Shown here piece after piece: positions 23,657-42,302 of a stretch of DNA of 64,000 bases (its first letter is position 1; each line of letters opens with the position of its first letter). Where the stretch lies: the NCBI GenBank assembly GCA_027053075.1, contig JALUEE010000047.1, positions 11,155 through 75,154 on the forward strand, in the 5' to 3' direction. The notes below the pieces were generated by a model. The model worked only from the letters and a program-made list of their open reading frames with translations. It had not been told where the DNA came from and ran no database searches. A program made the position numbers and the translations under genes. The stretch is from a candidate division WOR-3 bacterium. GTDB taxonomy: Bacteria; Hydrothermota; Hydrothermia; B15-G9; WFZT01.

Positions 23657-23890
23657 TTAAATCCAGCTCTGCGTCATGAGCACGGGTATTTGTGAGAAAG
23701 TGGATTTCTGGGCACTAAGAATTAAATCAAGCTCTGTGACATAAGCACCATCCGCGAGAGAAGAGATTACATTCACGACCTTAAAGACAATAGGAATTAA
23801 ATCCAGCTCTATAACATAGTCACTTAAAAAACAACGCTGAGCTGGTTTTGAAAGAGCATGAATTAAAATCAGCTCTATAACACAGTCACC
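23657..23890. repeat. four degenerate ~30-bp direct repeats (GAATTAAATCCAGCTCT..N..CA.AG.CAC) with 35-45 bp non-conserved spacing
   Basis: Units begin near 23657, 23718, 23793 and 23860. It lies ~450 bp upstream of the CRISPR leader. Confidence 0.5.
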
Positions 23891-24349
23891 CTCCCGTGGT
23901 TTTTTTGGTAGAACCTTTTTCATAGGCTTTTTCATAGTCACCCTCCCCCACTTGCTCTGCAAGTGGAGGAGTAGTCCAGTTCCCACCTTCGAAACTAAGG
24001 AAGTTTCCCTCCCCCACTTGCCCTGCAAGTGGGGGAGGGCAAGGGAGGGGGCATTCCGCTTGAAAATTTTAAAAACTTAAGACGTTTATCTTCTTCCCCC
24101 TTGCGCAAGTAGGAATATTACTAACCTTTAAGTGACCAAAATTACTCCAACAAGTTTGGAAAAATTTTAAAAAGACACTGACATCGTCAACTACTATTAG
24201 TGGAATCCCAATCTTTTTACGACTAAAGTGTTGAAAATTCACGATTTCAATAAAAATTAAAGAGTTTTACCATCTTAGTGTCTAAATTTTATTTCCCTAC
24301 CAAAGCAAACTGCTTGCAGAATCAGCCACTTAAATTTATCATATATGTG

Positions 24350-25635
24350 TTCCGATCCTACCTACGAGGCATGGAAATTATCATCCACCTGAACGTCCCA
24401 TGAAGCAGAATCAAGTTCCGATCCTACCTACGAGGCATGGAAATGAAAAATTCGGAATCAATTGCCCTGTAAGTGAATTGTTCCGATCCTACCTACGAGG
24501 CATGGAAATATTGGCCTTGTTCCTGCAGAAAACATAAGAGTGTCTTTGTTCCGATCCTACCTACGAGGCATGGAAATTTGAGATTGAGAAGTAGCCGTCA
24601 GTAGTGGAGATAGGTTCCGATCCTACCTACGAGGCATGGAAATTCCCCATATTCAGCTCGATATAGTTTTTTCAATTCGTTCCGATCCTACCTACGAGGC
24701 ATGGAAATTACCTCCTTTTATTTTAATTATCCCTAAACCTAACGTTCCGATCCTACCTACGAGGCATGGAAATGCTTTGACTGATTGAGGTATGTGGAAA
24801 GTAAGTAAAGAGTTCCGATCCTACCTACGAGGCATGGAAATTTTTGTTTATAATCCCTTTCATAACATTTCTCCTCGTTCCGATCCTACCTACGAGGCAT
24901 GGAAATGCGATCTTCTCAGAGAAATACGGGAACTAAAAGAGGGTTCCGATCCTACCTACGAGGCATGGAAATGCAAAAGTCCCAGGTAATTGCCCTGGAG
25001 AATCCCTTGTTCCGATCCTACCTACGAGGCATGGAAATCTCCGTTGCCGGCTAATCCGAATGCAAGGGTATTGGTTCCGATCCTACCTACGAGGCATGGA
25101 AATTAGATATCGAGAAGATTCTGAGGCTTCCGGTGTATTGTTCCGATCCTACCTACGAGGCATGGAAATCATTTCTATTTTCTAACTTGGGTTTCACAAA
25201 TTTTTCCCGTTCCGATCCTACCTACGAGGCATGGAAATAAACCAATATCACCAAATCCTATATAATCATGACTTTCGTTCCGATCCTACCTACGAGGCAT
25301 GGAAATGAATAGACTATAAAAGCCCAGCCGTTTTGAGTTGGTGTTCCGATCCTACCTACGAGGCATGGAAATTATGTTTGGAAACATGAAATAAAATGGT
25401 ATAAGAGAGTTCCGATCCTACCTACGAGGCATGGAAATCCGGAAGACCCAGAAAAGATAAAGGAACTTGATGTAGTTCCGATCCTACCTACGAGGCATGG
25501 AAATACGGTTTTATCCACACCGTACACGGAGTTTGACAGGGTTCCGATCCTACCTACGAGGCATGGAAACTCCAATCCTCTTTTAAGACAAATACATACG
25601 GCAATGTTCCGATCCTACCTACGAGGCAAAAAATT
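24350..25635 (+). CRISPR. CRISPR array, 20 repeats of 30 bp (GTTCCGATCCTACCTACGAGGCATGGAAAT), 19 spacers of 34-39 bp
   Basis: - The period is exactly 65-69 bp.
- Repeat 19 ends in C instead of T.
- Repeat 20 is degenerate (..GAGGCAAAAAATT), which places the leader at the 24.1-24.35 kb AT-rich side and transcription on the + strand.
- The repeat starts GTTCC.AT like the P. furiosus type III/I repeats; the predicted 8-nt crRNA tag is AUGGAAAU. Confidence 0.95.
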
Positions 25636-25714
25636 TGGTCTATCTTCTCTGACTCATTGACCTTCTGAGATTGCTTTGAAGATAAAAAATTTTGGGATTT
25701 TGAAACGTCCTCCA

Positions 25715-25755
25715 CGCGGTTTTGCCCACAAACGAAGTTTGTGGGCAAAACCGCG
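25715..25755 (+). terminator. perfect 18-bp hairpin with CGAAG loop immediately after the terminal CRISPR repeat
   Basis: CGCGGTTTTGCCCACAAA-C-GAAG-TTTGTGGGCAAAACCGCG. It has no U-run, so it may act as a pre-crRNA 3' boundary or REP-like element rather than a classic terminator. Confidence 0.4.
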
Positions 25756-25849
25756 AAAATACATTCACCCCACCATCAAAAACTATCCCTTCCCATCCCT
25801 CCACCTCCAATTCTTGTTTGAAAGCTCCCCATTCGTTAGAATTTTCGAC

Positions 25850-29876: not shown

Positions 29877-29892
29877 TGGCAGAAAAATTGCA
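29877..29892 (+). promoter_or_regulatory. sigma-54 promoter TGGCAG-N5-TTGCA upstream of the cytochrome gene
   Basis: It matches the -24 GG / -12 GC consensus (TGGCAC-N5-TTGCW). An AAGGAGG RBS lies ~17 nt downstream, and the ATG is at 29924. Confidence 0.65.
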
Positions 29893-29923
29893 TCTCACTC
29901 TCCGACAAAAGGAGGTGAAGTGT

Positions 29924-31837
29924 ATGAAAAAATTACTGGCCCTGTTATTAGTTTTTACCGTGCTACACGGCTATGATGCAAAATCTTCCTGCGTAAAGTG
30001 CCATTCCAATAAGGAGCTTCTGAAAAAACTCGGAGCTCCTCAAATGTACATGGACCCAGCACAGGTCGATAAGGAAGTCAATATGAACGGAGTTCCCAAA
30101 TGCGTTGACTGTCATCTTGGTAACAATAAAACCATGGACATGAAGAAAGCCCACAAAGGTATGCTGAAGCCATTCTACGCCGCCATCGGTAAAACCCTTA
30201 AATACCAGTATGTTGATCGAAGCGTTACCAACTACGATCGCATACTTCCAAAAGGGAAGAAAAGATTTAAAGTTCTCATGCGTAAGCCCACCTCTGAGGC
30301 AAAAAAGAAATACCACATCAAAAAACTCATGCAACTCTTTTATCATGACAGGGACACGGCAACATTTACATTTAACATAAAAATTGCCCAGAAGACCTGC
30401 GGAAAATGTCATTCAAAAGAGGTAAATGACTATAAGCACACCTCTATGGCACTTTCACTTTATCAAAGGGCATACACGGACTGGACAAAATCACCTCCAG
30501 GCCCTCAAAACTGCGGAGTCTGGTTTGCTGACAATTACCAGACAATAAAAGGAAAATGTACGAGAGATTACACAGAAAAAATGGCAAAATCAGCTACGAG
30601 GGGATGTAACAAGTGTCATACTTCATGTCTTGATTGCCATTATGCTGGATATAAAAAATCCGTGACAAGCCACAAATTCCTCTCAGAGCCAGAGCCTATG
30701 TCATGCTACGGTGGAGGGAGAGGAACCATCTGCCACGCAGGTCCAATGGATCGCCGTCGTGGTGCTGGTTATATGAGACAGGAGTTTGCTTTCCCGGTAG
30801 GAGAACTCCCAACCGACGTACATAATAAAAATGGTGTCACATGCCTCGATTGTCACGAGCCTCACAACCATGACTGGGGTCACCTTGCTTCAGCAACTGC
30901 ACGCAACTCCTGCTCAAAATGTCACGAGGAAATAGTTGATGCTGTTAAAACCGGCATTCACAAGAATGTTGACTGCACTGCGTGCCACATTCAAAAAGTC
31001 GGGGCCTATCAGTTCACATTTTGGGGCCCCGGAATATTTGTTGGCATGCCCAACGTTTTTACAAAGCACAAGCAGTATTACGGTGTGAGAAGTATGCCTC
31101 TACTCGTCAAACACCCGACGCGTAAAGTCTGGATACCGGTCAAACCCTATCCTATGGCCGTTATGAACATCTCCGAGGATGTGAAACCCACCGGACTTAT
31201 GGTAAGGTCTATTCCTGAGGAGAAAATTAAGGGACATCCCGAAGTTGGAGAGCCTAAATTTTTGAAAGTCAAGCGCTCACCAGACCAGATAAACGACATG
31301 TACATAATAACTGGCACGTTTGACGGGCTTAAGAAAAACAATAAAATGCTCGCATGGATTCAGATGGATAAGATGTCCCACGCTATCGGAAAGGGTAGAT
31401 CATGTCAGTCCTGCCACAGCTCTCACGATCAGGTTGCAACAACCTGGTACACTTATTCCAATATGAAGGATGTACAGAAGAAATTCAGCGGAAGTTATAT
31501 CGTGAAGGCAACAAAGGACGGCATCACTTTCAGTGGTTTTGAAAATCATACACCAATAATTCCAAAGCCGGGAAGAGATGTGGAAGATTTCGCTCCATTT
31601 TTAACACTTCCCAACGCCTGGAACGTGAGGGGAATCGACTTCTCCATACCGTTTGATGAAAAGAAATACGAAGCAGAGCTAAACAAATACAATATGATTT
31701 ACGCCGAAATCCACGCACTGAAGCTGAAATATGCAAAGGATGAGGCCAAACTCGAACAGCTGAATTTGATCAAAGCCATTCTCCCCCACAATCCCGAAAA
31801 AGCCCAACAGATGCTGAACGAGATGAAAAAGGGGTGA
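29924..31837 (+). CDS. secreted nonaheme c-type cytochrome
   Basis: A signal peptide (MKKLLALLLVFTVLHG) and nine CxxCH motifs are present. A C-terminal coiled-coil follows. Confidence 0.8.
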   Translation: MKKLLALLLVFTVLHGYDAKSSCVKCHSNKELLKKLGAPQMYMDPAQVDKEVNMNGVPKCVDCHLGNNKTMDMKKAHKGMLKPFYAAIGKTLKYQYVDRSVTNYDRILPKGKKRFKVLMRKPTSEAKKKYHIKKLMQLFYHDRDTATFTFNIKIAQKTCGKCHSKEVNDYKHTSMALSLYQRAYTDWTKSPPGPQNCGVWFADNYQTIKGKCTRDYTEKMAKSATRGCNKCHTSCLDCHYAGYKKSVTSHKFLSEPEPMSCYGGGRGTICHAGPMDRRRGAGYMRQEFAFPVGELPTDVHNKNGVTCLDCHEPHNHDWGHLASATARNSCSKCHEEIVDAVKTGIHKNVDCTACHIQKVGAYQFTFWGPGIFVGMPNVFTKHKQYYGVRSMPLLVKHPTRKVWIPVKPYPMAVMNISEDVKPTGLMVRSIPEEKIKGHPEVGEPKFLKVKRSPDQINDMYIITGTFDGLKKNNKMLAWIQMDKMSHAIGKGRSCQSCHSSHDQVATTWYTYSNMKDVQKKFSGSYIVKATKDGITFSGFENHTPIIPKPGRDVEDFAPFLTLPNAWNVRGIDFSIPFDEKKYEAELNKYNMIYAEIHALKLKYAKDEAKLEQLNLIKAILPHNPEKAQQMLNEMKKG

Positions 31838-31921: not shown

Positions 31922-31950
31922 GGGGGGCGCCTCCTTCGGAGGCGCCCCCT
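31922..31950 (+). terminator. intrinsic terminator GGGGGGCGCCTCC-TTCG-GGAGGCGCCCCC plus a T-run
   Basis: It lies between the convergent cytochrome gene and the TM-CARF gene. A canonical U-run follows on the + strand. Confidence 0.7.
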
Positions 31951-32017
31951 AACTTTTTATCGGCATCTCACTGGCTCAAGTTATGGTTTTATTCAATGTG
32001 ATATCAAACATCTTCAT

Positions 32018-33040
32018 TTAATCAATGACAGGAATATCCATTTCAGTGACGTCAATTCTCACGAGACTTTTATCACCGGACTGTCTCACATACTCAGCCT
32101 GTCTATCTCCCACCACAGCCTCAAGAATCATTGCTGATGATACCATCGCGGTCCCACCGGTTATATTAAAACTAATATCGCTATCTTCATAATTTTTGAG
32201 ATTTTGCAGCAACCTATCTAATTCAATCTTAACGTCTCTGAAATCACTGACATCAACAACTCTGGACTTTTCTATGATCAAATCTCCCGTGGTAATTCTT
32301 TTTTCGAGATGTGGAATAACCTTCAGAAATTTTTCAAAATCAGCAAAATGTTCTTTTGCTTTCTCTGATAATATGACAATAACCCCTTCAAGAATGTGAT
32401 TTTCGTGTATAATTGCTCTCAACGCCGGTGTCCAGTTGCCGGGCAAGTCTTTTAAAGTTTCCTCTTTAGGTATTGCCGGGTTACCCAGTTGCCGTAATTT
32501 TTCTTGAAGAGATTGAATCTGTTCAAAGGGCTCACTGCTGGGCAAACTCAGTGCAAAGATAAGAACTTTTCTGGGGAGCGGTTTATCGTGGGCAGGTTTT
32601 TCTTTTGGCTCGAACAAACAATTGATGTATAGTAGAGGCAATAAAAACAGAAACAAGATTGCCAATATGAATGTCAGAATGTGATGCCAGAGTAAGCCCT
32701 TATTGTAATCCGGTGTTAAAACAAGTATCCCTGCATCCCTCACACTATCAAATACCCAGGAAATCTGGAATAAAACACTCAGGAAAATCCAGATGGACAG
32801 GTATCTATAAATTTTCTTTAACCCTTTTCGCGGTGGCTCTTTTAGAAAGTTACGAAGGGCATCTGTGAGGCCAATAGATTTGTCCTTATATTTATACATC
32901 AAGATGGTTATTGCTGAAATCAAAAGGATAATCAATAAAGTTTGGCCTAACGCCATAAAGGAGAGTATAAATGGGAAAACGCTTGAAAAGGCCAAAAGTG
33001 CAATTATGAACAGTATCTTTAAAAATTCCCTGAAGCTCAA
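32018..33040 (-). CDS. CRISPR-associated membrane protein: 4 N-terminal TM helices plus C-terminal CARF-like domain (Cam1-like architecture)
   Basis: TM helices lie at about residues 8-30, 33-49, 80-98 and 120-142. The C-terminal Rossmann-like domain has a beta1 motif KVLIFALSLPSSEP and the CARF signature NITGGTAMVSSAMILEA (compare DxTGGTK). It is the last gene of the cas operon and overlaps the upstream stop (ATGA). Confidence 0.5.
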   Translation of the reverse strand: MSFREFLKILFIIALLAFSSVFPFILSFMALGQTLLIILLISAITILMYKYKDKSIGLTDALRNFLKEPPRKGLKKIYRYLSIWIFLSVLFQISWVFDSVRDAGILVLTPDYNKGLLWHHILTFILAILFLFLLPLLYINCLFEPKEKPAHDKPLPRKVLIFALSLPSSEPFEQIQSLQEKLRQLGNPAIPKEETLKDLPGNWTPALRAIIHENHILEGVIVILSEKAKEHFADFEKFLKVIPHLEKRITTGDLIIEKSRVVDVSDFRDVKIELDRLLQNLKNYEDSDISFNITGGTAMVSSAMILEAVVGDRQAEYVRQSGDKSLVRIDVTEMDIPVID

Positions 33041-33042
33041 TT

Positions 33043-33429
33043 TTATATCCTTCTCATTTCTCTGAACTTTTCTCTGATGCTCTGGAGATTTATTATTTCT
33101 GCAACCTCAAATTTTGGAGGGGTAGAATTCGGAACCGGCTTCAATCTCACTACAGGTGGGAAATATCCCATCAAACCATGAAGTGCTGCAAGGAGGGTGA
33201 CAGCAATAAAATTAAAGGCTGGTGGAACTATTATAATCGGCCGTGTCTGCCACTCCTCAGGTGTCAGGTTACACGCCTCAATAAGATCTTTCACCTGCTC
33301 CTCAAAAGACTTTTCATTATCAAAAAACACTGGAATCTGCCTTATCTCCTCAATCTCCTCATCTATCAATTTCCTGATCTGCCCCACCTGCTCCTCAGTT
33401 AGTGGATGAGAAAAATTAAGCACGAGCAT
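33043..33429 (-). CDS. hypothetical 128-aa protein embedded in the type III cas operon
   Basis: It has no recognisable motif and is acidic at the N-terminus. It is translationally coupled to the TM-CARF gene. A 134-bp gap upstream could hold an internal promoter. Confidence 0.45.
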   Translation of the reverse strand: MLVLNFSHPLTEEQVGQIRKLIDEEIEEIRQIPVFFDNEKSFEEQVKDLIEACNLTPEEWQTRPIIIVPPAFNFIAVTLLAALHGLMGYFPPVVRLKPVPNSTPPKFEVAEIINLQSIREKFREMRRI

Positions 33430-33563
33430 GGTTACTTTAAAATTTTAAACACTCCATATCCCTGATTCCCTTTTGCTCCAACACCTATGTTTTCAAGGGC
33501 AAATTCGAGAAATCTTTATCCCAGAATATTGAAAAAGTATCTATAAAAATAACCTTCCCGTTA

Positions 33564-34421
33564 TTATGATTTAATTGGTCGCCATAAACCATTATCCAAT
33601 ATTTCAAAGTAAACATCTTGATCGCTATCCACCTTTGTTCCTGGTTTCCAAGTCAAGCCTTGTGTATAAATACGCTGTAAGTACCTGCCCTCCAAAACTT
33701 CAAAATCTCCTTTAAATTTGAAGTGCGGGTCTGGCATTATATGACCAAATGCTATATTGGATTTTATGCGTGGATTTGTATGATTCAGTTCCACTTCGTA
33801 ATCCAAAAAACGAGAAGCTTCCGGATGTTTCACGAGTTCAATATGACCAAATCCGTAGCGGGTATCTGCTCCTACCATCAGTTTCTTTATTGAGAAAACT
33901 TGGTTTTGAACACTCTCATCGGCAATAAACACATACCCCACCATGAACATCTCGGGAGGTGGATAATGGTTACTAATTTGCCAATAAGGTTGAATGCACT
34001 CTAATTCGCGAAGTGTCCCTTCCTCAGCACTATCTGATTTGGGATCAATGGATGTGGAGGGAAACGAATACAGAATTTTTGATTTGAAGTCTCTGTTTGG
34101 CTTATCATCATTTGGAGTGTCTTCCCTTTTCCAAACGAGTCCATCAGAGTATTCTGAATACCACATAGCGTATTCATCGCCAATTTTTTCGGCTGGGAAC
34201 AGATAGGAAAATCGGACATTTTGTAGCAAATTTTCACCAATCGAAATATAATCCGGGAAACTACTTCCTGCCGTATCCCGTGATAACTCGGCTGTTAATG
34301 CTCCCCAAATTGTCCTTGCTGGTATGTATAAGCGGGTTCTGTTCAAAATTCCTGCTGGTGCCGTGCCGATATTTATGGGTGATTTTACCTTCCAGACCCA
34401 TCGGAACATCTTCCATGCCAT
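33564..34421 (-). CDS. cmr3: Cmr3-like (Cas5 group) subunit
   Basis: The N-terminal motif YIPARTIWGAL is present (compare IPGSS.kGAL), as is the G-rich loop GADTRYGFGHIE. Confidence 0.7.
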   Translation of the reverse strand: MAWKMFRWVWKVKSPINIGTAPAGILNRTRLYIPARTIWGALTAELSRDTAGSSFPDYISIGENLLQNVRFSYLFPAEKIGDEYAMWYSEYSDGLVWKREDTPNDDKPNRDFKSKILYSFPSTSIDPKSDSAEEGTLRELECIQPYWQISNHYPPPEMFMVGYVFIADESVQNQVFSIKKLMVGADTRYGFGHIELVKHPEASRFLDYEVELNHTNPRIKSNIAFGHIMPDPHFKFKGDFEVLEGRYLQRIYTQGLTWKPGTKVDSDQDVYFEILDNGLWRPIKS

Positions 34422-34427
34422 AATTTC

Positions 34428-34781
34428 TCACCCCTGTTTGGCCTTCAAGTGATAACGAGCATACGAGAATGCGGTGCGTAGAAGGTCTCGAGCAAAAAGT
34501 AAATCATCTAAATCTTTGGAGTTTGCTAAGAGCTTTATTGCTTCCAAAATATCGTCCGTAGTATCCAAGCGATTTCCGAAAATGGTCTTGAGAAATTGCA
34601 GAGATTCCGATCTAACCTCTTTAGCTACATTGTTATTCTTGGCCTTGAGATATAGAAACATCGCATACGGGCCTTGCTCTTCCAAAACAGTCAAGGCCTC
34701 GTTGACAAGATTTTCATCTATGCCAGAAATCTGGGCTATCTCACGGCCCAATTCGGCACACTGAATGTCCAAATTTTTCAT
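34428..34781 (-). CDS. cmr5: Cas11 small subunit (Cmr5-like)
   Basis: It is an alpha-helical protein of about 118 aa that follows cmr4. The MKNLDIQ start was chosen to avoid an 80-bp overlap with cmr4; the ORF-track start is 34904. Confidence 0.55.
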   Translation of the reverse strand: MKNLDIQCAELGREIAQISGIDENLVNEALTVLEEQGPYAMFLYLKAKNNNVAKEVRSESLQFLKTIFGNRLDTTDDILEAIKLLANSKDLDDLLFARDLLRTAFSYARYHLKAKQG

Positions 34782-34824
34782 TTGAGCTTCACTCACGGCT
34801 TTCCTCCTCGTTTGGTTCAGAGGC

Positions 34825-35856
34825 CTATGACGGATTAGATTGTCTCTGAGCGGGTTCAACGCAATCAATATCTTGGGTTCCGGGCGATTCATTCTCATGC
34901 ACAACTTCTACGCGTCCCATGCCTCGAGTGCCCATGCCGCCGATGCCCAAGTGTTTGAGATAGGGGTGAGCCTGGTGGGTTACCTCATGCACCCTTTCTG
35001 GAGAATACATTCGCTGACCACCATCCAGAATGACGCCTATCTCCTGTCCACCTATTCTAAAATGCTGAGGATTCTTTGCGATAATTTCCCACACCAGGAC
35101 CGTGGATCGAGGCAGGGCTTCGTAAGAGAAGAGAGCCCTTTCTTCGGCAGCACCAGTTTCGGGATTGATGGAAACCGAGGTGCGCACTTCCAAATTGCTG
35201 TTGACGATGTGGGCGAAGAGGCGGTCAGGCACCAAAGCAAGGCGGTTTTGGATGTAATCTGGGATACCCAGGCCTTGCAATTTAGTTTTAATATCATTCA
35301 TTTGGGCACACGCTTGCACAGGCAGCAATAACCAACCCAAGTTAAGAGGGTTGCCCGAGTTTGATTCAAGGTAAACGGCATTTTCCTCCACCCCCTGCAC
35401 ATTCAAACCTATAAAACGCAAGGTCTGAGGTGCAGTCACCCACATGGGGCCTTGACGGGTAGCGACAGGGAAGAGCAGCAAATGGACATCAGTAAAGGCG
35501 GCCAAGCCTGCAAAACCGCCTTCCTGCCCTGCACCACGGGCGAAACCAAAGACAGTGCAAACGGGACAGTCAGGTTGGCGACAATGCCCATGATCCGCAT
35601 CCAGCCCTAACCCGGCGCAATCGGGGTAAAAAGGTTTATCTCGGTTCGGAAATTGTGCTGTCCGATTTTCTTCAAAATACATCGCCACATAGGCCCGATA
35701 CACTCCAGCTAAGCTGGACCCAGGAATTTTAGGCACCTGGGTGACCGGGTCGCGCACAATAGTCAAATCTACCCGACCGATGCGGGTCCCACCGGTGCCC
35801 ACATGAATAGGGTCCAGAGCCAGACCAACCTGCAAGAATTTTTTGTAACTAGACAT
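34825..35856 (-). CDS. cmr4: Cas7 backbone subunit (Cmr4-like) with CxxC..CxxC insert
   Basis: The N-terminus is LALDPIHVGTGG...RDPVTQVPKIPGSSLAGVYR, followed by a zinc-finger-like segment CRQPDCPVCTVFG. Confidence 0.7.
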   Translation of the reverse strand: MSSYKKFLQVGLALDPIHVGTGGTRIGRVDLTIVRDPVTQVPKIPGSSLAGVYRAYVAMYFEENRTAQFPNRDKPFYPDCAGLGLDADHGHCRQPDCPVCTVFGFARGAGQEGGFAGLAAFTDVHLLLFPVATRQGPMWVTAPQTLRFIGLNVQGVEENAVYLESNSGNPLNLGWLLLPVQACAQMNDIKTKLQGLGIPDYIQNRLALVPDRLFAHIVNSNLEVRTSVSINPETGAAEERALFSYEALPRSTVLVWEIIAKNPQHFRIGGQEIGVILDGGQRMYSPERVHEVTHQAHPYLKHLGIGGMGTRGMGRVEVVHENESPGTQDIDCVEPAQRQSNPS

Positions 35857-35869
35857 TATTTACCTCCTT

Positions 35870-38800
35870 TCAAACATTTTCTTTAAGGACTATTGTATGC
35901 CAATCTATCGCCCATTGGAGTAATCTCTGTTGGGCAGAGTCTATGAGGGTTTCAAGTGCTGTGCCCCTGACCTCTAAATGGTGCACAAGCATGGCACGGA
36001 GAGTATCTTCCCACAAATCTTTTGAAACGGCTCGTTGCCCCTCGGGTGTTTGCCATTCCTTTTCCAAACGCCCAAGTTCTGTTCTAAATCTCTGAAGAGC
36101 CGTTTGGCTTGGGACAACTTTCTTTAATAGGTTCCATATTTCGCGCATTTGCTCCCAATCTTCCAAGTAATGTAAATCTGGGTTAGAGAAGCGAGCGGAG
36201 GTGCTTCCCATGAAGAGGATGGTTACACGCGCTGTGGATACTTTTACACCATCACCTGGACGAAGGTCCGATACATGACGGTAAACACGGCCATCCTTTG
36301 GATGGCGAAAATCTCGGGGAAAACGAAGTTGTCGATCCTCAATTACCATGTAAGGATAGAACACATCATCTCGCCCATCAGGCATAGCAGTAGGCACTAT
36401 CTTTAAGATGCTCTTGCCGTCTTCCAGTTTTAAGCGGAGGACTACCACACCTGCTTGTCGTTCCACTTCTTCCACCTGCCATGTTTCCTCCTCTCCTTTC
36501 AGTTCTTCTTCCATTTTACGTGTTGCTCCGATCACGGCCTGATAGGGCAACATTCGAGGGAATGCGACCACGCCTATCCGTAAAGGAAGCCGATCCCACA
36601 CGCGGGAGAAGTGTTCCTTCCACCAGGAAACAGCTATATCCACACATTCGGAGGCCGCTTCCAATGGCACCAGCACCCGAAAACGAAGTGGAGAGACTTC
36701 TACCGGAATGACCGGGTGATACAAGCTCAAGTGCGCATGAGGCTGACGCAGCTCATTCACATGGGTAACAGTCATAGGACGCTCCTGACCAAAGGTATCT
36801 TCTTCTTCCAGCCTAATTTGAGCACCCTGAAAGGAACTCGATTGCTCTTCTGGCCGTAGCAATCTACCCAGATTGGAAGCCGTCACAAAACCTCCCAGGC
36901 TACGCACATAGACCAGGCTAATCTGCCGACCTTCCCAACGGCCATTGTAAAGGGTCAGGTCTCGCCAATCGTTATTGTCGTCTGGAACCAACACCAAGCG
37001 TCGGACACGCCAGCAATTTTCGCTGCGAGCCGCTATCTGCCGAAATTCCTTCAGCAAGTCATGGAAGAACTCCTCGGCCTCCCGCCAGAAGCGATAGACA
37101 CGGCCAGGTGAGGGAAGCTTGCGGAAGAGTTGATGCGCAAGCCAAGCAGCTCGCTGGTCGTCATTCAAGATACCCCATGTAGGTGCATCGGTACGATCCT
37201 CTACAATTTTACGGAAAAAAGTTGGCCAGTCATTTTCATACTTGTAACCCTCTTGAAGGTTGGCAAGCAATTGGTCGTTTTTATCGAATTTAAAATGCTG
37301 TGGATTTTGTGGATCGCGAAACCTTTGTTTTAGCTCGTCAATCAGCTTATCCATAGAGCCTGTGGGGGCAATAGGATTAGGTTGACCTGAAAGGACCAGG
37401 TTAAATCTCACCCACTCCGGTATTGCTTGTACCCGCAGGCTATCCACACGGCTGCCATTGAGCCAATCTTCAAGGTCCAGTGAGAATGTTAGCAAAGCCA
37501 GGCGGCCGTTGCGGTCAGCCACCTCCTCGAACCAGATGGTGTCGTAATCCAGTTGCCCCTGAAGCCATGCATCTCTTCGATGGTGGCGCCGCTCGCGGCA
37601 TACCGCGCATGGCTTACCCTTGTTGGTGGGATCACCGTTTAGTCGCACACGGCAGACGGGACACACATGACCACGCGTCTCTGAAGGAGCCCTCCAATGA
37701 ACATCCCACTGCTTGTGAACAGGGACGGCCACTACCAGCTTGGACTCTTTAAGCTCCCTAACAATGGGTACCAATGAACGGGTCGGCTTACTCAGGCGCA
37801 CAAAGGGCGGGGTTTCCAGTTCCAGATTACGGGCGATTTCTTCTACTTGATCTTGGAGCCATCCATTCCATCCTCGGAGCCGGGATGCGAAGTTCTCTTC
37901 ATCAAACTCAAAATTCGGATCTCTCCGTCTTTGACGTTCCTGTTCTTCTTCATCGAATCTCTCGCCGGGAAAAGAAAACACGGCCATGCTGCTGTCTCGA
38001 TAAAGCAAAGAGCCTGCAGCAATGTCCACCTCCACCAATTCAGCTACACGACGGAAAAATTCGTCAATGGCACCTTGAGCACCTGTCCAGTCACCAATTT
38101 TTACCGCGCGGGCTTCGTAGTGCTCGGTCCCAAGGGCGATAGTGAGCAGGCGCCAGCGGGTATTGCTTTTGGTAAAATTATTGATAGCCAATTTCTCATC
38201 TTTCGATAGGTCATCGAAGGACTTCTCTTTTCCTTTCTTTGTTCTAAGGTTTATACCCAATTTGGTAGCTATGCTCTTCCAGTTCCAAGGAAAACCCTTA
38301 TCGAGCAACGCCCCAGCCACCGCGCTCTTAAATAGAGCCGCAGCCACATAGGACTGGTCCCACAAGGTAACATCGTTGTTGGGCAAACGCGTCTCGGCTA
38401 AGGTGGACATAAAAGCTCTTCGGACAAAAGATTTTTCTCCGATAGCTCTATTCCGCCAGTCTTGCCAATGAGCTACATCTGACACACCTCTGGTTCCTAA
38501 GTCCCGCAACTCCTCCAAAACTCGCCGGATTTCTCCCACCAATTGCTGCCAGCCCTGTGGAGTCAATAGTTCAGGTGGATTGGCCAGCAGGTTACGCTTT
38601 GGGTGGCCCCAAGGTGAGGAAAGCCACATGTGAGGAATGGTTTGCTTAAGATAATCTGAGGTAGAAGTAGGAAGGTTTTTCTCGACGCCAGAGACAATAC
38701 CATGTCCTGCTTGGAGTAATCCCAAAAGACCAGGGTTACGTCCTGCATGTTGTTCAATAAACGTAGAAAAAGAACCTGGCCATGCATTATTGGGTATTCC

Positions 38801-39028
38801 ACTCCCGTATAGCCGTTTTACCCATTCTAATAAGGTATCCCATGGAAAAGGTGGCGTTTCCAAATCATGCCAATGTCGTTCATCGTAGCCGTTGTTCTCG
38901 CCACCATGACGGCGTAAAAATTCAATTCGTGCCTTTCCAGCCATGTGAAACCACCCAATGGCCTCCATTGCTAAGAGTAAAGGGCGATGTTGCCGTAAAG
39001 TCTCAGCCGGTGAGAAAGTGCTGCTCAT
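35870..39028 (-). CDS. cas10: Cas10 large subunit: HD-like N-terminus, treble-clef Zn finger, palm domains without a GGDD cyclase motif
   Basis: - It is ~1050 aa.
- There is a possible HD motif (H..RHWHD).
- The zinc finger is CPVCRVRLNGDPTNKGKPCAVCRER.
- The palm beta1-like segment is LALLTFSLDLEDW.
- No GGDD/GGDE/GDD occurs anywhere in the protein.
- A start at 39028 gives a 4-bp overlap with the cmr6 stop. Confidence 0.65.
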   Translation of the reverse strand: MSSTFSPAETLRQHRPLLLAMEAIGWFHMAGKARIEFLRRHGGENNGYDERHWHDLETPPFPWDTLLEWVKRLYGSGIPNNAWPGSFSTFIEQHAGRNPGLLGLLQAGHGIVSGVEKNLPTSTSDYLKQTIPHMWLSSPWGHPKRNLLANPPELLTPQGWQQLVGEIRRVLEELRDLGTRGVSDVAHWQDWRNRAIGEKSFVRRAFMSTLAETRLPNNDVTLWDQSYVAAALFKSAVAGALLDKGFPWNWKSIATKLGINLRTKKGKEKSFDDLSKDEKLAINNFTKSNTRWRLLTIALGTEHYEARAVKIGDWTGAQGAIDEFFRRVAELVEVDIAAGSLLYRDSSMAVFSFPGERFDEEEQERQRRRDPNFEFDEENFASRLRGWNGWLQDQVEEIARNLELETPPFVRLSKPTRSLVPIVRELKESKLVVAVPVHKQWDVHWRAPSETRGHVCPVCRVRLNGDPTNKGKPCAVCRERRHHRRDAWLQGQLDYDTIWFEEVADRNGRLALLTFSLDLEDWLNGSRVDSLRVQAIPEWVRFNLVLSGQPNPIAPTGSMDKLIDELKQRFRDPQNPQHFKFDKNDQLLANLQEGYKYENDWPTFFRKIVEDRTDAPTWGILNDDQRAAWLAHQLFRKLPSPGRVYRFWREAEEFFHDLLKEFRQIAARSENCWRVRRLVLVPDDNNDWRDLTLYNGRWEGRQISLVYVRSLGGFVTASNLGRLLRPEEQSSSFQGAQIRLEEEDTFGQERPMTVTHVNELRQPHAHLSLYHPVIPVEVSPLRFRVLVPLEAASECVDIAVSWWKEHFSRVWDRLPLRIGVVAFPRMLPYQAVIGATRKMEEELKGEEETWQVEEVERQAGVVVLRLKLEDGKSILKIVPTAMPDGRDDVFYPYMVIEDRQLRFPRDFRHPKDGRVYRHVSDLRPGDGVKVSTARVTILFMGSTSARFSNPDLHYLEDWEQMREIWNLLKKVVPSQTALQRFRTELGRLEKEWQTPEGQRAVSKDLWEDTLRAMLVHHLEVRGTALETLIDSAQQRLLQWAIDWHTIVLKENV

Positions 39029-40044
39029 GGCGTACCTCCTTTGGTTAGCCAGTTTTGAACTTCCTGCCAGAGTTCGTCGCGAGTATCCTTTTCCACGCTG
39101 CCATGAGTTTTGTGGAAAGCGCGCCACTTTTTGATTTCCGCTGTGCCCCAGCCCACAGTGCGCTTGGCGGAGATCCCATAGGGAGTAAGCAAAGTTTCAA
39201 TAGCTTCAAGCAGTTTTGGGAGTACATCCACAGGTTTTGCCTCTGGCTCCATACCGGGCCAGGGCGCGTAAAGTAATGAAAGTGTTCCTTCGGCTCCCTC
39301 AACTTCCTCTCTTTCTTGGGTTCCATCAGACTTTTTCTTCACCTGTATCGTCCGTCCAGGAACCACTTCATAGTAAATAGGTTGGGTGCCAGCGCGATTG
39401 GTACGACTATGTGGGTTGATGACCTCGAAGCCGATCTTGTTGAACCACGTGGGGTAGAAGACCAGAGCGCCCTGGTGGAAGTTTTTCTCTTCCTTCTTCT
39501 CGTTACCAAAGAGATGCTGAATCCAGTCCGGATCCCACCAGCCATCTATTTTGCCATTGTGTTGTTCCAGATATTCCATCAGTCCTTCGTGCATTCTACA
39601 GGCCCATCGCAGCATGCCTTTACAAGAGGAAGCCGCCATAAATGGCACGCCAAAGACCCGGTCTTTACGCACAGGGTTGTCCATCACATGGAAAATTCGG
39701 TCATCACGGGAATACCAGGGAGTGAGTAGTTCAAAATCCACCTGAAGAGCAAGCCAACGATCAGATAATAGCGTGGAAAAGTCAATTTGTAGTCCTGGAT
39801 ACAACTTGACCGGGAATCTCCGAGGCACTTTTCCCATGTATTCCTTACGGAGCCTCGTTTTCTCCCGCTCCGCCTGACGTTTTCCCTGTCTGTCATTTGT
39901 CTTTTCCGCTTCTAATCGCTTGATTTCAGTCTTCAAGAAGCATTTGAAAATATGATCGATAAAACCTCCGGCCAGCCTCCAAGCCACCGGAGTGTTTTCC
40001 AATGGTTCGCAAGTCTCAAGAAAGATGAAGTAATCCCAAGTCAT
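39025..40044 (-). CDS. cmr6: Cas7 family subunit (Cmr6-like)
   Basis: Motifs GVPFMAASSCKGMLRW and HLFGNEKKEEKNFHQGALVFYPTWF are present, with a C-terminal G-rich loop GWGTAEI. Confidence 0.65.
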   Translation of the reverse strand: MTWDYFIFLETCEPLENTPVAWRLAGGFIDHIFKCFLKTEIKRLEAEKTNDRQGKRQAEREKTRLRKEYMGKVPRRFPVKLYPGLQIDFSTLLSDRWLALQVDFELLTPWYSRDDRIFHVMDNPVRKDRVFGVPFMAASSCKGMLRWACRMHEGLMEYLEQHNGKIDGWWDPDWIQHLFGNEKKEEKNFHQGALVFYPTWFNKIGFEVINPHSRTNRAGTQPIYYEVVPGRTIQVKKKSDGTQEREEVEGAEGTLSLLYAPWPGMEPEAKPVDVLPKLLEAIETLLTPYGISAKRTVGWGTAEIKKWRAFHKTHGSVEKDTRDELWQEVQNWLTKGGTP

Positions 40045-41267
40045 GAATTTTCCTCCTGTTTGAACAATCGTTCCATAATTTGCTCTCCTGTAATGAAATC
40101 CTCATTCGGATTAAAGTCCTGCCAAATTTGCCCCAAGCGGCGCTTCATTTCTTCAAAATCCACTAAACCCGGCTTCACAAAGCCAAAGGTGCGGCGTGCT
40201 TCTTCTGGATGTTCGAAACTGAACACTTTTTTGCTTACCTGTTGACTACCCGCAAGCCAGTGATTAACCTCGTTATCTCGCCAGAAGTTCTGCGCTTGGT
40301 TCTTCCGCATATTCCTTCCAATGACAAGATTATATGTACTTTTGGTGAACGATTGCCTTGCCAGATACCGTCCTTTCACGAACCAGAAGTTTTGCAACGA
40401 GGCCCAGGCAAAATCTTGGTCGTTAAAGCTCTTTCGCCACCGTTCCTGTTTTACATATGCTTCTGCTTGCTGCAGAGTGCAGCCAACTCCTTGAGGCCGC
40501 TCCTCAACCGTGATGAGCCCGAAATCCTGATGGTGTCTCTTTCCGGCCCAAGCATTGATCTCCCGAGTTTCATTGTCCCTTCGCACTTTGATTTTGAGAG
40601 GTTCACCATGCGGTTTTCCACTAAGGAGGTTTTCAAGGTCAAGAAGACGAGTCACCAATGTGCTATCAACTTCCAGGATTACATCGCCTTCTTGTAACTG
40701 GAGCCCCCGCCGACTGTGTCGCACTTTTATCTGCCCGCTTGAATCGTCCAGATCATCGGCGCCAAGATCAGCGATTCCCCATTCATCTGACGGCTTGAAC
40801 ACCGTTTTCCCACCCAAGGCCCCGTATTCGGCAATAAGGTGGATGGTTGCATCCAGCAGACACCATTCTTCTGGATGAATAGGTCGCAAAGGGATGAAGC
40901 GTAGGATAAAAATATTACTCCCGTTGTCGTCATTATCTACCTTGATCTGATTTTGGATGACCTTTTTTCCATATTTGTCCACCACCATAAGCCGGAACTT
41001 GCGTGCCCAACCAGTGCAACCGAAAAGTTCACAAACCACGCAATGGTGGCCAGGTTCATGTGGCTGTTTGTTAGGAGCTGGGCAACGAATTTCCGACGCC
41101 GTCGGGTCACAAGCCTTCCCACCCAATCCTCGAACTAACACCTCGAACCACCAGCGAAGTGAACCCATTATACCGGTCAAGATCGTTCTTTCCCCACGCC
41201 TTGAAGCATCCCCTGTGAATATCGGGGTTAGCGCTTTTAACTTCCATTCCTCCCATTCTTTACTCAT
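40041..41267 (-). CDS. cmr1: Cmr1-like RAMP (Cas7 group) with Zn finger and an inserted PDZ-like domain
   Basis: - The RAMP N-terminus is LTPIFTGDA...GSLRWWFEVLVRG.
- The zinc finger is CPAPN..HHCVVCELFGCTGW.
- The first G-rich loop is GALGGKT.
- Residues ~165-240, GLQLQEGDVILEVDSTLVTRLLDLENLLSGKPHGEPLKIKVRRD, align with the PDZ core (GL.aGDvI..vnG..v.s...l...l.....G..l.l.v.R). Confidence 0.6.
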   Translation of the reverse strand: MSKEWEEWKLKALTPIFTGDASRRGERTILTGIMGSLRWWFEVLVRGLGGKACDPTASEIRCPAPNKQPHEPGHHCVVCELFGCTGWARKFRLMVVDKYGKKVIQNQIKVDNDDNGSNIFILRFIPLRPIHPEEWCLLDATIHLIAEYGALGGKTVFKPSDEWGIADLGADDLDDSSGQIKVRHSRRGLQLQEGDVILEVDSTLVTRLLDLENLLSGKPHGEPLKIKVRRDNETREINAWAGKRHHQDFGLITVEERPQGVGCTLQQAEAYVKQERWRKSFNDQDFAWASLQNFWFVKGRYLARQSFTKSTYNLVIGRNMRKNQAQNFWRDNEVNHWLAGSQQVSKKVFSFEHPEEARRTFGFVKPGLVDFEEMKRRLGQIWQDFNPNEDFITGEQIMERLFKQEENS

Positions 41268-41506
41268 TAGGATATCTCCATTTTTAAAATAACCTGTAAG
41301 GACAAGAGAATAACGGTTTCATCAGGAAATAAGCATTTCGGGTATAGGGAATCATGGCTGTAGAAATTCAAGAGATAAAAAGTCTCTGTGAACCAGAATC
41401 TCATTGCGCCTCTTATCGAGGCGGGGCGGAGTTCGGGCTCACCCTCTGGGTCAGCTCCGCCCATAAACATTGGGGTTAAGACTTTTAGTTTGAAGGTGGT
41501 TTTCAT
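41267..41506 (-). pseudogene. 79-aa ORF consisting of a Cmr1-type RAMP N-terminal motif followed by unrelated sequence; probable duplicated/decayed cmr1 fragment
   Basis: The first half of LTPMFMGGADPEGEPELRPASIRGAMRFWF is a textbook Cmr1 N-terminus. No continuation exists in any frame. It has its own GGAGG RBS, and its stop overlaps the start of the full-length cmr1. Confidence 0.45.
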
Positions 41507-41543: not shown

Positions 41544-42302
41544 TTAATCCTTATTTCTCACCACTTCGATCATGCCGAAGCCCTGGCTGTTTTTGGCTCC
41601 CAGGCCCGCATTGTAAGCAAGCATAAACCAGGGCTCGGGCAGGCTTAATTCATATATTCCTACCCAACCCTTAACAATGACGCCTTTAAACTTCGTTATT
41701 ATCTCGTTGTGCTTCTTAACCTTTACGGGCTTTATATACCCCTCAATTGGTGGGATGTCGTTTTTGGAGAAGTAAGCTTTGGCCTTGCGACGGAGGTTAT
41801 CAAAGATCAATTCTTCAAATTCTTTCTCGAAGGGACTAAAGTAATAGGTCTTTCTCTGTCCATCGGACGTGTATAAAGTTCGATAAACTGTTATCGGAGA
41901 GATTGCTTTAATTTTCATAGGTCCCGAGAGTTTGAAAGGTCTCTCAACCTCAATTGATACGAGATTGCATTTAGCTGAGCCGATTCTTACCACCCCTTCC
42001 TTAACCAGTGTAGCTGCGAAAGATTCGAGAATCTCAATATCAACAGATGAAATCTTAAACCAAACTCGCCCCTCAAAAATCAGCTTTTTGCTTATCGGAT
42101 CATACCTTCTATTTTCACCGAAGAGTCTTGAGAAGGTGTATAACTTGAATCTTCTCTTTCCAAATTGGTAGCCTTCATCATGTACCCATTCAGCGAGCTT
42201 CTCTTTGATGTTGTTGAGGATAAAACTCTGGATGATGTGGTTGTAATTGACGGAGATTCTAAGGATTCCGTTCTCTGGCTCAAATTTTACAATTAATCTC
42301 AA
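41544..42302 (-). CDS. cas6: Cas6 pre-crRNA endoribonuclease
   Basis: The C-terminal G-rich loop is GLGAKNSQGFGMIE, and the size (252 aa) fits. It uses a TTG start with an AGGAGG RBS. It is the first gene of the operon, below a 340-bp AT-rich promoter region. Confidence 0.85.
   Translation of the reverse strand: MRLIVKFEPENGILRISVNYNHIIQSFILNNIKEKLAEWVHDEGYQFGKRRFKLYTFSRLFGENRRYDPISKKLIFEGRVWFKISSVDIEILESFAATLVKEGVVRIGSAKCNLVSIEVERPFKLSGPMKIKAISPITVYRTLYTSDGQRKTYYFSPFEKEFEELIFDNLRRKAKAYFSKNDIPPIEGYIKPVKVKKHNEIITKFKGVIVKGWVGIYELSLPEPWFMLAYNAGLGAKNSQGFGMIEVVRNKD

What the first reader, a model, noticed from the sequence alone, without database searches (positions are those of the whole stretch)
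32018..33040. Membrane protein with 4 TM helices and a C-terminal CARF-like domain as last gene of the operon, despite a cyclase-dead Cas10
- The C-terminal ~180 aa show CARF hallmarks: a beta1 motif KVLIFALSLPSSEP and NITGGTAMVSSAM (compare the DxTGGTK signature), in Rossmann-like alternation.
- The N-terminus has four hydrophobic helices and no other catalytic domain. This is the Cam1-type arrangement, where the membrane part is the effector.
- The Cas10 in the same operon has no GGDD, so it should not make cyclic oligoadenylates.
- Either the sensor listens to a second type III system in trans, or it binds a different ligand, or this Cas10 makes a signal through a non-canonical site.
Basis: partly seen in the sequence, partly recalled or inferred. 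Interest (0 to 1): 0.8.

Follow-up and report, generated by a model that had tools for sequence, protein, structure and literature searches.

The report
Membrane CARF effector stranded by cassette swap
The gene does encode a four-helix membrane protein with a genuine cyclic-oligoadenylate sensor (CARF) domain. It sits beside a cyclase-dead type III-C CRISPR system because that system replaced an older, signal-making type III-B system and left the sensor and its partner Csx15 behind.

Summary

The Cas10 in the operon is Csx11/Cas10c (type III-C) and has no GGDD motif.

The paradox has an evolutionary explanation:
- The gene is always paired with csx15, a published cA4 sponge/ring nuclease.
- More distant relatives of the pair sit in III-B loci that carry a GGDD Cmr2 and Card1- or Csx1-type effectors.
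- A metagenomic relative has the same pair (93% DNA identity) directly behind cmr3-4-5-6.
- In the window that homology stops at about 33509, leaving a 78-nt remnant of the cmr6 3' end.
- Upstream lies a compositionally foreign III-C cassette (GC about 50% against 39%).

The III-C cassette therefore replaced a III-B cassette, and the cA4 module was left behind. The module is intact and under purifying selection, so it may still be fed cA4 in trans. No second cyclase-competent system could be securely assigned to this genome.

This is a new member of a known kind, of moderate interest.

The parts
32018..33040 (-). Gene for the 340-aa 4TM-CARF protein (CARF8--CARF_TM type). TM domain aa 1-142 corresponds to nt 32615-33040. 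Linker aa 143-154. CARF domain aa 155-340 corresponds to nt 32021-32578.
33043..33429 (-). csx15, a CARF-superfamily cA4 sponge / slow ring nuclease. It sits immediately upstream of the TM-CARF gene in every close homologue locus whose upstream flank is held (9 distinct loci).
   Evidence: NCBIfam CAS_Csx15 E=2e-49; PADLOC Csx15; aligns to solved Csx15 9teu at 1.9e-19, with H8/H84/F107 matching CliCsx15 H13/H90/Y113 (PMC13148439); pairing shown
33432..33509 (-). 78-nt remnant of the 3' end of a type III-B cmr6 gene (encodes ...LEFALENIGVGAKGNQGYGVFKIL*). It marks the breakpoint of the cassette replacement.
   Evidence: blastn: homology to L006 stops at 33509; alignment with the L006 cmr6 end and the longer L013 remnant
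33564..34421 (-). cmr3 of the III-C cassette (285 aa)
   Evidence: PADLOC Cmr3 E=7e-73
34428..34796 (-). cmr5, the small subunit of III-C (122 aa as called in public assemblies; the mechanical ORF extends to 34904)
   Evidence: PADLOC Cmr5 CAS-III-C E=1e-29; gene call
34825..35856 (-). cmr4 (Cas7 backbone RAMP)
   Evidence: NCBIfam Cmr4 E=1.5e-32
35870..39028 (-). csx11 / cas10c, the type III-C large subunit (1052 aa from the ATG; the mechanical ORF extends to 39127). It has no GGDD and carries an invariant 'FHMAGK' where an HD dyad would be.
39025..40044 (-). cmr6-like RAMP of the III-C cassette
40041..41267 (-). cmr1-like RAMP with an inserted PDZ domain
   Evidence: NCBIfam Cmr1 E=4e-16; Pfam PDZ_2 E=9.7e-8
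41267..41506 (-). 79-aa RAMP-like ORF, conserved as a separate ORF in related III-C cassettes
   Evidence: gene calls with a Pfam RAMPs hit
41544..42302 (-). cas6. Its GC is low, like the csx15/TM-CARF module, so it probably belongs to the resident locus rather than the imported cassette.
24349..25648 (.). CRISPR array of 20 repeats of 30 nt (GTTCCGATCCTACCTACGAGGCATGGAAAT). In relative L006 an array with the same repeat starts about 180 nt downstream of the TM-CARF gene.
31922..31950 (.). G+C-rich hairpin (13 pairs) between the convergent TM-CARF and cytochrome genes. It marks the operon end and is conserved in L006.

Best explanation
The gene encodes a CARF8-type membrane effector. It has four TM helices and a cytosolic loop-helix-loop between TM2 and TM3. 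A C-terminal cytosolic CARF domain most likely binds cyclic tetra-adenylate (cA4).

By analogy with Cam1, Cap1 and especially Chp1, ligand binding by an oligomer (probably a tetramer) would open or perturb a membrane pore. The cell would depolarise and growth would stop during infection. The upstream gene csx15 would buffer or slowly degrade cA4 so that stray signal does not trigger the effector.

This two-gene cA4 module did not evolve with the neighbouring Csx11. It belonged to a type III-B (Cmr) locus. The interference cassette of that locus (cmr1 to cmr6) was replaced by a horizontally acquired, higher-GC type III-C cassette. The resident cas6, the CRISPR array, csx15 and the TM-CARF gene stayed in place.

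So the 'CARF next to a dead cyclase' is a product of locus history, not evidence that Csx11 signals. The module is still intact and constrained. If it is used today, its cA4 must come from a cyclase-competent type III system elsewhere in the cell.

Shown here: fold, family, pairing with csx15, breakpoint, remnant, composition break, purifying selection. Inferred: the ligand (cA4), the pore mechanism and present-day activity.

The confidence given covers identity and origin (a CARF8-type cOA-sensing membrane effector plus Csx15, left behind by a III-B to III-C cassette replacement). Whether the module is active today is scored separately under the rival explanations.
For: CARF fold and family:
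- AF2 pLDDT 93.9.
- PADLOC CARF_2M 1.4e-23 and a near full-length CARF8--CARF_TM match at 1e-18.
- 23, 22 and 21 of 77 family members hit the Pfam CARF models Cas_Csm6_CARF, HFX_2341_N and CARF_Card1.
- The pocket-motif residues S165, G296, T297, Y317 and Q320 are at least 90% conserved. Their T-to-Y (20) and T-to-Q (23) spacing resembles Chp1's cA4 contacts T472/Y493/Q495 (bioRxiv 10.64898/2026.08.05.743128).
- The topology TM1-TM2, loop-helix-loop, TM3-TM4, linker, CARF equals that described for Chp1.

Pairing with csx15:
- Every homologue locus whose upstream flank is held has csx15 immediately upstream.
- Csx15 is cA4-specific (PMC13148439), and the window copy keeps the conserved H/H/aromatic residues.

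Ancestral context is cOA signalling:
- L002, L008 and L019 carry Cmr2 with 'YAGGDDILAF' plus Card1-like proteins, then csx15 and TM-CARF.
- L004 and L005 have Csx1 directly upstream of csx15.

Cassette swap:
- L006 has cmr3-4-5-6, then csx15, TM-CARF and an array with the same repeat. It is 93% identical to window 32015-33509, with no similarity upstream of that.
- A 78-nt cmr6 3' remnant lies in the window and a 315-nt remnant in the second III-C-linked lineage, L013.
- GC is 37-41% in the module and cas6 but 48-55% in the III-C genes. Tetranucleotide r to the rest of the window is 0.87 for the module and 0.65-0.67 for the III-C cassette.
- Another III-C cassette (L015, Csx11 71% identical) has no such module.
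- The literature reports no cyclase sites, no known effectors and very few ring nucleases in III-C loci (PMC11229360; bioRxiv 2024.09.24.614671).

Constraint: dN/dS against L006 is 0.044 for csx15 and 0.14 for TM-CARF. Against III-C-linked L013 it is 0.06 for csx15 and 0.21 for the CARF part.
Against: - No ligand binding or membrane activity was tested. cA4 is inferred from Csx15, from the nearest structural neighbours and from co-resident effectors in relatives.
- No cyclase-competent Cas10 is present in the 64-kb window.
- The one candidate locus (L002) shares a MAG bin (GCA_015489415.1) and a run (SRR10312501) with window-identical contigs. Its housekeeping flank, however, is GC 49-54% with tetranucleotide r=0.59 to the window, so it probably belongs to another organism.
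- III-C and the module have stayed adjacent through dS of about 0.2-0.4 with low dN/dS. That is unexpected for a useless leftover and leaves room for a functional link to III-C.
- The region is recombinogenic: identity in the TM segment ranges from 57% to 97% between lineages. Branch-specific selection inferences are therefore weak.
Confidence: 0.8

Rival explanations
1. Trans-wiring as the present function. The module is actively used and is switched on by cA4 made by a second, cyclase-competent type III system elsewhere in the same genome. The two systems could share crRNAs from the same Cas6/array. The III-C complex would contribute only RNA cleavage. This is compatible with the best explanation's account of origin and concerns present-day activity only.
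For: - Both genes are intact with a good RBS and low dN/dS, including between the two III-C-linked lineages.
- A III-B locus with a GGDD Cmr2 occurs in the same MAG and the same sequencing run as window-identical contigs.
- Hoikkala et al. report ring nucleases in effector-less loci whose genomes carry another type III locus.
Against: - The III-B contig's housekeeping flank differs in GC (49-54% against 44%) and in tetranucleotide signature (r=0.59). It is probably a different organism or a binning error.
- That III-B locus already has its own csx15/TM-CARF paralogue.
- The rest of the genome could not be searched.
Confidence: 0.4
2. Functionless relic. After the swap the module lost its signal source and is drifting towards loss. 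It looks intact only because of recency or recombination with III-B-bearing strains. This is also compatible with the best explanation's account of origin.
For: - In the other III-C-linked lineage (L013), csx15 has a frameshift at codon ~91. The TM-CARF reading frame there has stop codons within TM1, while the eight upstream III-C genes are intact.
- III-C cassette L015 lacks the module.
- The literature reports that III-C lacks effectors.
Against: - The window copy and its 99.8%-identical relative L010 are fully intact.
- dN/dS is 0.04-0.21.
- The L013 lesions lie in a homopolymer and in low-similarity sequence of a metagenome assembly, so they could be assembly errors.
Confidence: 0.25
3. 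Csx11 signals after all. The III-C large subunit makes a nucleotide messenger at a non-canonical site, and this messenger is sensed by the CARF domain and buffered by Csx15.
For: - Csx11 is extremely conserved (55-86% identity across phyla), with many invariant acidic residues. These include an 'SLDLExWLNG' strand resembling the first palm motif of Cmr2 ('AVDGDHMGKWLAG') and an invariant 'VEDR' about 90 residues later (inference only).
- III-C and the module are adjacent in two diverged lineages.
Against: - There is no GGDD-like motif and no palm-domain HMM hit.
- III-C polymerase inactivation is an established conclusion (PMC8730458; PMC12669027).
- The cmr6 remnants show that the juxtaposition arose by replacement.
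- Profile comparison with Cmr2 found nothing alignable, so the motif resemblance is unverified.
Confidence: 0.07
4. The CARF domain senses something other than a type III messenger (for example a CBASS-type, phage-derived or metabolic nucleotide), and the module works independently of CRISPR.
For: About 25% of csx15 genes in complete genomes are orphans outside CRISPR loci.
Against: - Every locus of this family whose upstream flank extends beyond csx15 shows type III cas or CARF-effector genes there.
- The best structural matches are cA4 binders.
- Csx15 is cA4-specific.
Confidence: 0.06

Closest known systems
CARF8 / 'CARF_TM' proteins of the CARF classification (PADLOC models PDLC01944, PDLC01168, PDLC01053)
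   Same: There is a near full-length HMM match (aa 14-324 on model positions 9-304 of 339, E=1e-18). The architecture is the same: N-terminal TM helices plus a C-terminal CARF domain, associated with type III loci.
   Different: This is a divergent and rare subfamily. Only 6 close clusters were found among 5.8 billion proteins, and about 366 representative clusters at E<=1e-3. No member I could find has been studied experimentally.
Chp1 (BbChp/PsChp): HAD-4TM-CARF, a cA4-gated tetrameric pore
   Same: Four TM helices, with a roughly 22-residue cytosolic loop-helix-loop ('segment J') between TM2 and TM3, then a linker and a C-terminal CARF. The conserved Thr (GGT) and a Gln about 23 residues later match Chp1's essential cA4 contacts T472 and Q495 in spacing.
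   Different: There is no N-terminal HAD domain, which was reported to be structurally required in Chp1.
Cam1 (CRISPR-associated membrane protein 1)
   Different: Cam1 has a single N-terminal TM helix and 206 aa. The nearest CARF neighbours of the target are Card1 and Can2, not Cam1.
Cap1 and Csx23
   Same: Both are membrane effectors of type III systems gated by cA4.
   Different: Cap1 has 2 TM helices, a non-canonical CARF-like domain and DUF4579. Csx23 uses a non-CARF cA4-binding domain.
Type III-C CRISPR-Cas (Csx11/Cas10c) loci
   Same: The adjacent cassette is a complete III-C set: cmr1, cmr6, cas10c, cmr4, cmr5 and cmr3. It has no GGDD.
   Different: Published surveys find no known effectors and very few ring nucleases in III-C loci. 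Here a csx15 + CARF effector pair is adjacent, which the cmr6 remnant explains. This Cmr1 also carries a PDZ insertion.

Membership tests
CARF domain superfamily | Rossmann-like alpha/beta fold with a six-stranded core sheet | tested here: met
CARF domain superfamily | Conserved pocket motifs: a small or polar residue after beta1, and a G-rich (GGT/DxTHG-like) loop after beta4 | tested here: met
   KVLIFALS165 and NITG295G296T297. S165, G296 and T297 are at least 90% conserved in 77 sequences. The motif aligns to Card1 'NITGGT' and Can2 'NISGGT'.
CARF domain superfamily | Binds a cyclic oligoadenylate at a dimer interface | not testable with these tools
   Needs binding assays or a multimer model; the structure-prediction jobs were exhausted.
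CARF8--CARF_TM (PADLOC / CARF classification) | Significant match to the family profile over most of its length | tested here: met
   PDLC01944 E=1e-18, aa 14-324 on model positions 9-304 of 339. PDLC01168 'CARF, 2 TMs' E=1.4e-23. PDLC01053 'TM+CARF' E=5e-18.
CARF8--CARF_TM (PADLOC / CARF classification) | N-terminal transmembrane helices with the CARF domain in the cytoplasm | tested here: met
   Hydropathy peaks and four model helices. 10 K/R residues in the 50-78 loop and 5 after TM4 support N-in, CARF-in topology.
Cam1 | A single N-terminal TM helix followed directly by CARF (about 206 aa) | tested here: not met
   The protein has four TM helices and 340 aa. The Cam1 soluble construct spans residues 42-206.
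Cam1 | cA4-induced tetramer causing membrane depolarisation | not testable with these tools
   An experimental property.
Chp1 (CARF-HAD phosphatase) | N-terminal HAD phosphatase domain | tested here: not met
   The protein begins with TM1 at residue 3, and there is no HAD hit in Pfam, NCBIfam or PADLOC.
Chp1 (CARF-HAD phosphatase) | [quoted passage not shown] | tested here: inconclusive
   The model shows the same topology, with helix 58-63 inside loop 51-74, when compared with the published description. No Chp1 sequence or structure was available for direct comparison (not in the PDB copy).
Csx15 (neighbouring gene 33043-33429) | Profile match and conserved cA4-interface residues (CliCsx15 H13, H90, Y113) | tested here: met
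   NCBIfam E=2e-49 against a cut-off of 35 bits. Match to 9teu at E=1.9e-19, with H8, H84 and F107 aligned (PMC13148439).
Type III-C (Cas10c/Csx11) for the adjacent cassette | Large subunit of the Csx11 family lacking the GGDD cyclase motif | tested here: met
   TIGR02682 E=1.4e-84, above its cut-off. PADLOC Cas10c E=5.8e-115. A regex search found no GGDD-like motif.

The most novel reading that the evidence does not exclude
The III-C complex and the csx15/TM-CARF module are functionally coupled. Csx11 would generate a CARF-sensed messenger at a non-canonical active site, or activate the membrane protein in some other way. That would explain why the pair has been kept under purifying selection beside III-C in two diverged lineages.
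Probability: 0.07. Interest if true: 0.85.

Novelty: new member of a known kind. Interest (0 to 1): 0.4.

Why it matters
The finding shows that type III loci are modular. An interference cassette (III-B to III-C) can be exchanged between a resident cas6/array on one side and a resident cA4 sensor/buffer pair on the other. The scar is still readable as a cmr6 remnant.

This is a caution for genome mining. A CARF effector next to a cyclase-dead Cas10 need not mean a new signal.

It also gives a natural test case for trans-signalling between co-resident type III systems. In addition, it identifies a compact, HAD-less 4TM-CARF protein that could serve as a minimal model for the Chp1-type cA4-gated pore.

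Tried and rejected
- hhalign of a 34-sequence Csx11 profile against Cmr2 gave no usable alignment. The position equivalent to GGDD could not be mapped.
- Csx11 has no relative in the PDB by sequence.
- The search for homologous proteins with the 77-sequence profile returned only 7 hits because of its candidate cap.
With the close alignment it gave only 2 genome loci and 3 metagenome loci.
- tblastn of the target and two family members against plasmids found nothing.
- The AFDB Foldseek library was unavailable.
- The Chp1 sequence is not in the paper's supplements.
- I first took the III-B locus L002, which is in the same MAG as a window-identical contig, as proof of a second system in the same genome. 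I downgraded this after its housekeeping flank proved compositionally different.
- I considered whether the csx15/TM-CARF pair is part of the mobile III-C cassette. I rejected this because of the breakpoint, the cmr6 remnants, the composition and its absence from L015.
- The first AF2 model, built from 7 sequences (pLDDT 76), gave only weak Foldseek E-values. It was superseded by the 77-sequence model.
Full report
**Observation.** The ORF at 32018-33040 on the minus strand is real (340 aa). It starts with TTG, 2 nt after the stop codon of the upstream gene, and has an AGGA ribosome-binding site about 8 nt upstream.

Hydropathy gives hydrophobic segments near residues 3-26, 29-50, 79-99 and 117-142. 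A deep-alignment AlphaFold2 model (77 sequences, mean pLDDT 93.9, pTM 0.84) shows four long helices at 3-26, 31-50, 75-108 and 114-142. Between TM2 and TM3 lies a short helix (58-63) inside a basic loop. After TM4 comes a linker, then a beta/alpha domain from about residue 155. The distribution of Lys and Arg places the N-terminus, the 51-74 loop and the C-terminal domain in the cytoplasm.

**The C-terminal domain is a CARF domain.**
- Single-sequence HMM hits are weak but specific: Pfam Cas_Csm6_CARF E=0.003 and NCBIfam cas_csm6 E=9.5e-9, on the CARF part of the model.
- A profile of the family hits Card1, Can2 and Cdn1 in the PDB at about 2e-4, aligning 'DISFNITGGT' to Card1 'NITGGT'.
- Of 77 family members, 23, 22 and 21 hit the Pfam CARF models Cas_Csm6_CARF, HFX_2341_N and CARF_Card1 respectively.
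- PADLOC-DB already holds models for this architecture. The target matches 'CARF, 2 TMs' (1.4e-23), 'CARF8--CARF_TM' (1e-18, nearly full length) and 'TM+CARF' (5e-18).
S165, G296, T297, Y317 and Q320 are at least 90% conserved across the family.

**The neighbouring cassette.** The operon on the minus strand reads, from its upstream end:
- cas6 (41544-42302);
- a 79-aa RAMP-like ORF;
- a Cmr1-like RAMP with a PDZ insertion;
- a Cmr6-like RAMP;
- Csx11/Cas10c;
- Cmr4, Cmr5 and Cmr3;
- csx15, then the target.

Csx11 matches its NCBIfam equivalog above cut-off (E=1.4e-84) and PADLOC 'Cas10c, CAS-III-C' (5.8e-115). It contains no GGDD, GGDE or similar motif and has no Pfam palm-domain hit. That type III-C Cas10 has an inactivated polymerase is established (PMC8730458; PMC12669027). 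[quoted passage not shown] They also state that III-C loci have very few ring nucleases. No other cas10 or nucleotide cyclase lies in the 64-kb window.

**The partner gene.** The 128-aa gene directly upstream is csx15 (NCBIfam E=2e-49). Csx15 is a CARF-superfamily protein that binds cA4 specifically in head-to-tail filaments and acts as a sponge or slow ring nuclease (PMC13148439). A Csx15 domain also serves as the cA4 sensor of Cash (PMC13462974).

The window protein aligns to solved Csx15 (9teu, 1.9e-19) and to the Cash Csx15 domain (9ylu, 3.6e-23). Its H8, H84 and F107 sit at the positions of CliCsx15 H13, H90 and Y113.

The target family is rare. Six close clusters were found among 5.8 billion proteins, and 366 representative clusters at E<=1e-3 in the exhaustive search, mostly 320-360 aa. 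In every close homologue locus whose upstream flank is held, a csx15 gene (69-97% identical) lies immediately upstream. So csx15 + TM-CARF is a conserved two-gene module, and its likely ligand is cA4. This is an inference from Csx15 specificity, from the nearest CARF structures being cA4 binders, and from the effectors found alongside it in relatives.

**Where the module normally lives.**
- In L002, L019, L020 and L008 (the last from a candidate division WOR-3 MAG) the module ends a complete III-B locus. That locus reads Cmr1, Cmr2 (946 aa, with 'FFHD' and 'YAGGDDILAF'), Cmr3-6, a CARF_Card1 protein and a Card1-like nuclease, then csx15 and TM-CARF.
- In L004 and L005 a Csx1 C-terminus lies directly upstream of csx15.

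The family's usual context is therefore cOA-signalling loci.

**The cassette swap.** Contig L006 carries a TM-CARF 94% identical to the target. By blastn, L006 2487-3981 matches window 33509-32015 at 93%, and nothing upstream matches.

In L006 the upstream genes are Cmr3 (a fragment), Cmr4, Cmr5 and Cmr6. Downstream, a CRISPR array with the window's repeat starts about 180 nt after the gene. The last 78 nt of L006 cmr6 are retained in the window at 33432-33509, at 96% identity. They encode ...LEFALENIGVGAKGNQGYGVFKIL*. Beyond them the window sequence switches to the end of the III-C cmr3.

A second III-C-linked lineage (L013/L014) has Cas proteins 76-86% identical to the window's. Between its cmr3 and csx15 it retains a longer cmr6 remnant of 315 nt.

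Composition agrees with replacement:
- csx15, the target and cas6 are 37-42% GC, whereas the III-C genes are 48-55%.
- The tetranucleotide correlation with the rest of the window is 0.87 for the module and 0.65-0.67 for the III-C cassette. The two housekeeping flanks of the window correlate at 0.975 with each other.
- A third III-C cassette (L015, Csx11 71% identical) is followed by a transposase and has no module.
- Csx11 itself is 55-70% identical across Chloroflexota, Thermus, Ammonifex, Rhodothermus and archaea, consistent with wide horizontal spread.

I conclude that a III-C cassette replaced the III-B cmr genes between a resident cas6 and a resident csx15/TM-CARF pair.

**Is the module still in use?**
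- The window copy and its 99.8%-identical relative L010 are intact.
- dN/dS against L006 is 0.044 for csx15 and 0.14 for the target (TM part 0.18, CARF part 0.12).
- dN/dS against the III-C-linked L013 is 0.06 for csx15 and 0.21 for the CARF part, at dS 0.2-0.4.

These values argue for continued constraint, even beside III-C. Against this, L013 has a frameshift in csx15 and stop codons inside TM1 of the target homologue, while its eight III-C genes are intact. That could be decay or assembly error. The region is also recombinogenic. TM-segment identity to the window is 97% for L006, 84% for L017 and 57% for L013, whereas csx15 and CARF identities are 88-93% among all of them. Lineage-specific inferences are therefore weak.

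**A second type III system?** The window is 100% identical over 17.8 kb to contig WFZT01000196 of MAG GCA_015489415.1. The GGDD-bearing III-B locus L002 is contig WFZT01000153 of the same MAG, and both loci were assembled from run SRR10312501.

However, the same III-B locus on a longer contig (L019, 99.7% identical) is flanked by recR, dnaX, murG, ftsW and murD at GC 49-54%. Its tetranucleotide r to the window is only 0.59. It probably belongs to a different, co-occurring organism. Trans-signalling therefore remains plausible but unproven.

**Mechanism.** Published membrane CARF effectors (Cam1, Cap1, Chp1) are cA4-gated tetramers that depolarise the membrane (PMC10808066). [quoted passage not shown] Segment J gates lipid fenestrations, and T472 and Q495 are essential for cA4 binding.

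The target has the same TM/J/TM/CARF layout without the HAD domain. Its near-invariant T297 and Q320 are spaced like T472 and Q495. Its most conserved non-CARF stretches are the J-like loop (LRNFLKEPP) and the outer end of TM3 (FQxSWxFDSVRD).

I therefore propose a cA4-gated pore or membrane-perturbing oligomer, buffered by Csx15. This is an inference. I could not obtain the Chp1 sequence to test homology.

**Verdict.** The protein is a new, divergent member of a catalogued kind (CARF8-type TM-CARF effectors). Its odd neighbour is best explained by interference-cassette replacement. The most novel reading that survives is that Csx11 somehow drives the module. It is not excluded, but no result here supports it beyond the constraint noted above.

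Noticed in passing
window 40041-41267 (-): The Cmr1-like RAMP of the III-C cassette carries an inserted PDZ domain (Pfam PDZ_2 E=9.7e-8, aa 190-238). The insertion is conserved in the 76%-identical L013 homologue. The L015 homologue is shorter (342 aa), with a gene call listing only the RAMP family. A peptide-binding domain inside a type III backbone subunit is unusual and might recruit a protein partner.
   Followed up: partly
window 35870-39028 (-), Csx11 residues 58-65 (1085-aa numbering): The N-terminal motif is 'GWFHMAGK', invariant in 34-70 homologues. This is H-M where Cas10 HD domains have H-D. This Csx11 clade may therefore lack both a canonical HD nuclease dyad and the cyclase motif, which raises the question of what its very strong conservation is for.
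   Followed up: partly
window 41267-41506 (-): A 79-aa ORF with a RAMP Pfam hit lies between cas6 and cmr1 and overlaps the cmr1 start by 1 nt. It is conserved as a separate ORF in L013/L014. It may be a split N-terminal part of Cmr1 or a small extra subunit.
   Followed up: no
window 23654-24037: Six degenerate direct repeats with a period of about 66 nt form two sequence families. They lie about 300 nt from the 20-repeat CRISPR array at 24349-25648 and may be a decayed second array.
   Followed up: no
window 25676-31837 (+): A histidine kinase, a sigma-54 response regulator and a multihaem cytochrome lie between the CRISPR array and the TM-CARF gene. In relative L006 the array starts about 180 nt after that gene, so there has been either an insertion here or a deletion there.
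   Followed up: partly
L013 7925-9485: In the second III-C-linked lineage, csx15 is frameshifted in a proline-codon run. The TM-CARF homologue has stop codons in TM1, and its TM segment is only 57% identical to the window while its CARF part is 93% identical. This looks like a mosaic or decaying copy, or it reflects assembly errors.
   Followed up: partly
L002 / L019 compared with the window: MAG GCA_015489415.1 contains both a window-identical contig (GC about 44%) and a III-B contig whose housekeeping flank is GC 49-54% with tetranucleotide r=0.59 to the window. The bin may mix two related populations.
   Followed up: partly
L019 1-11065: In that III-B locus the composition pattern is reversed. 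The cmr cassette is about 40% GC (r=0.90 to the window genome), while its csx15/TM-CARF pair and the host flank are about 49% GC. This suggests that cmr cassettes also move between these organisms.
   Followed up: no
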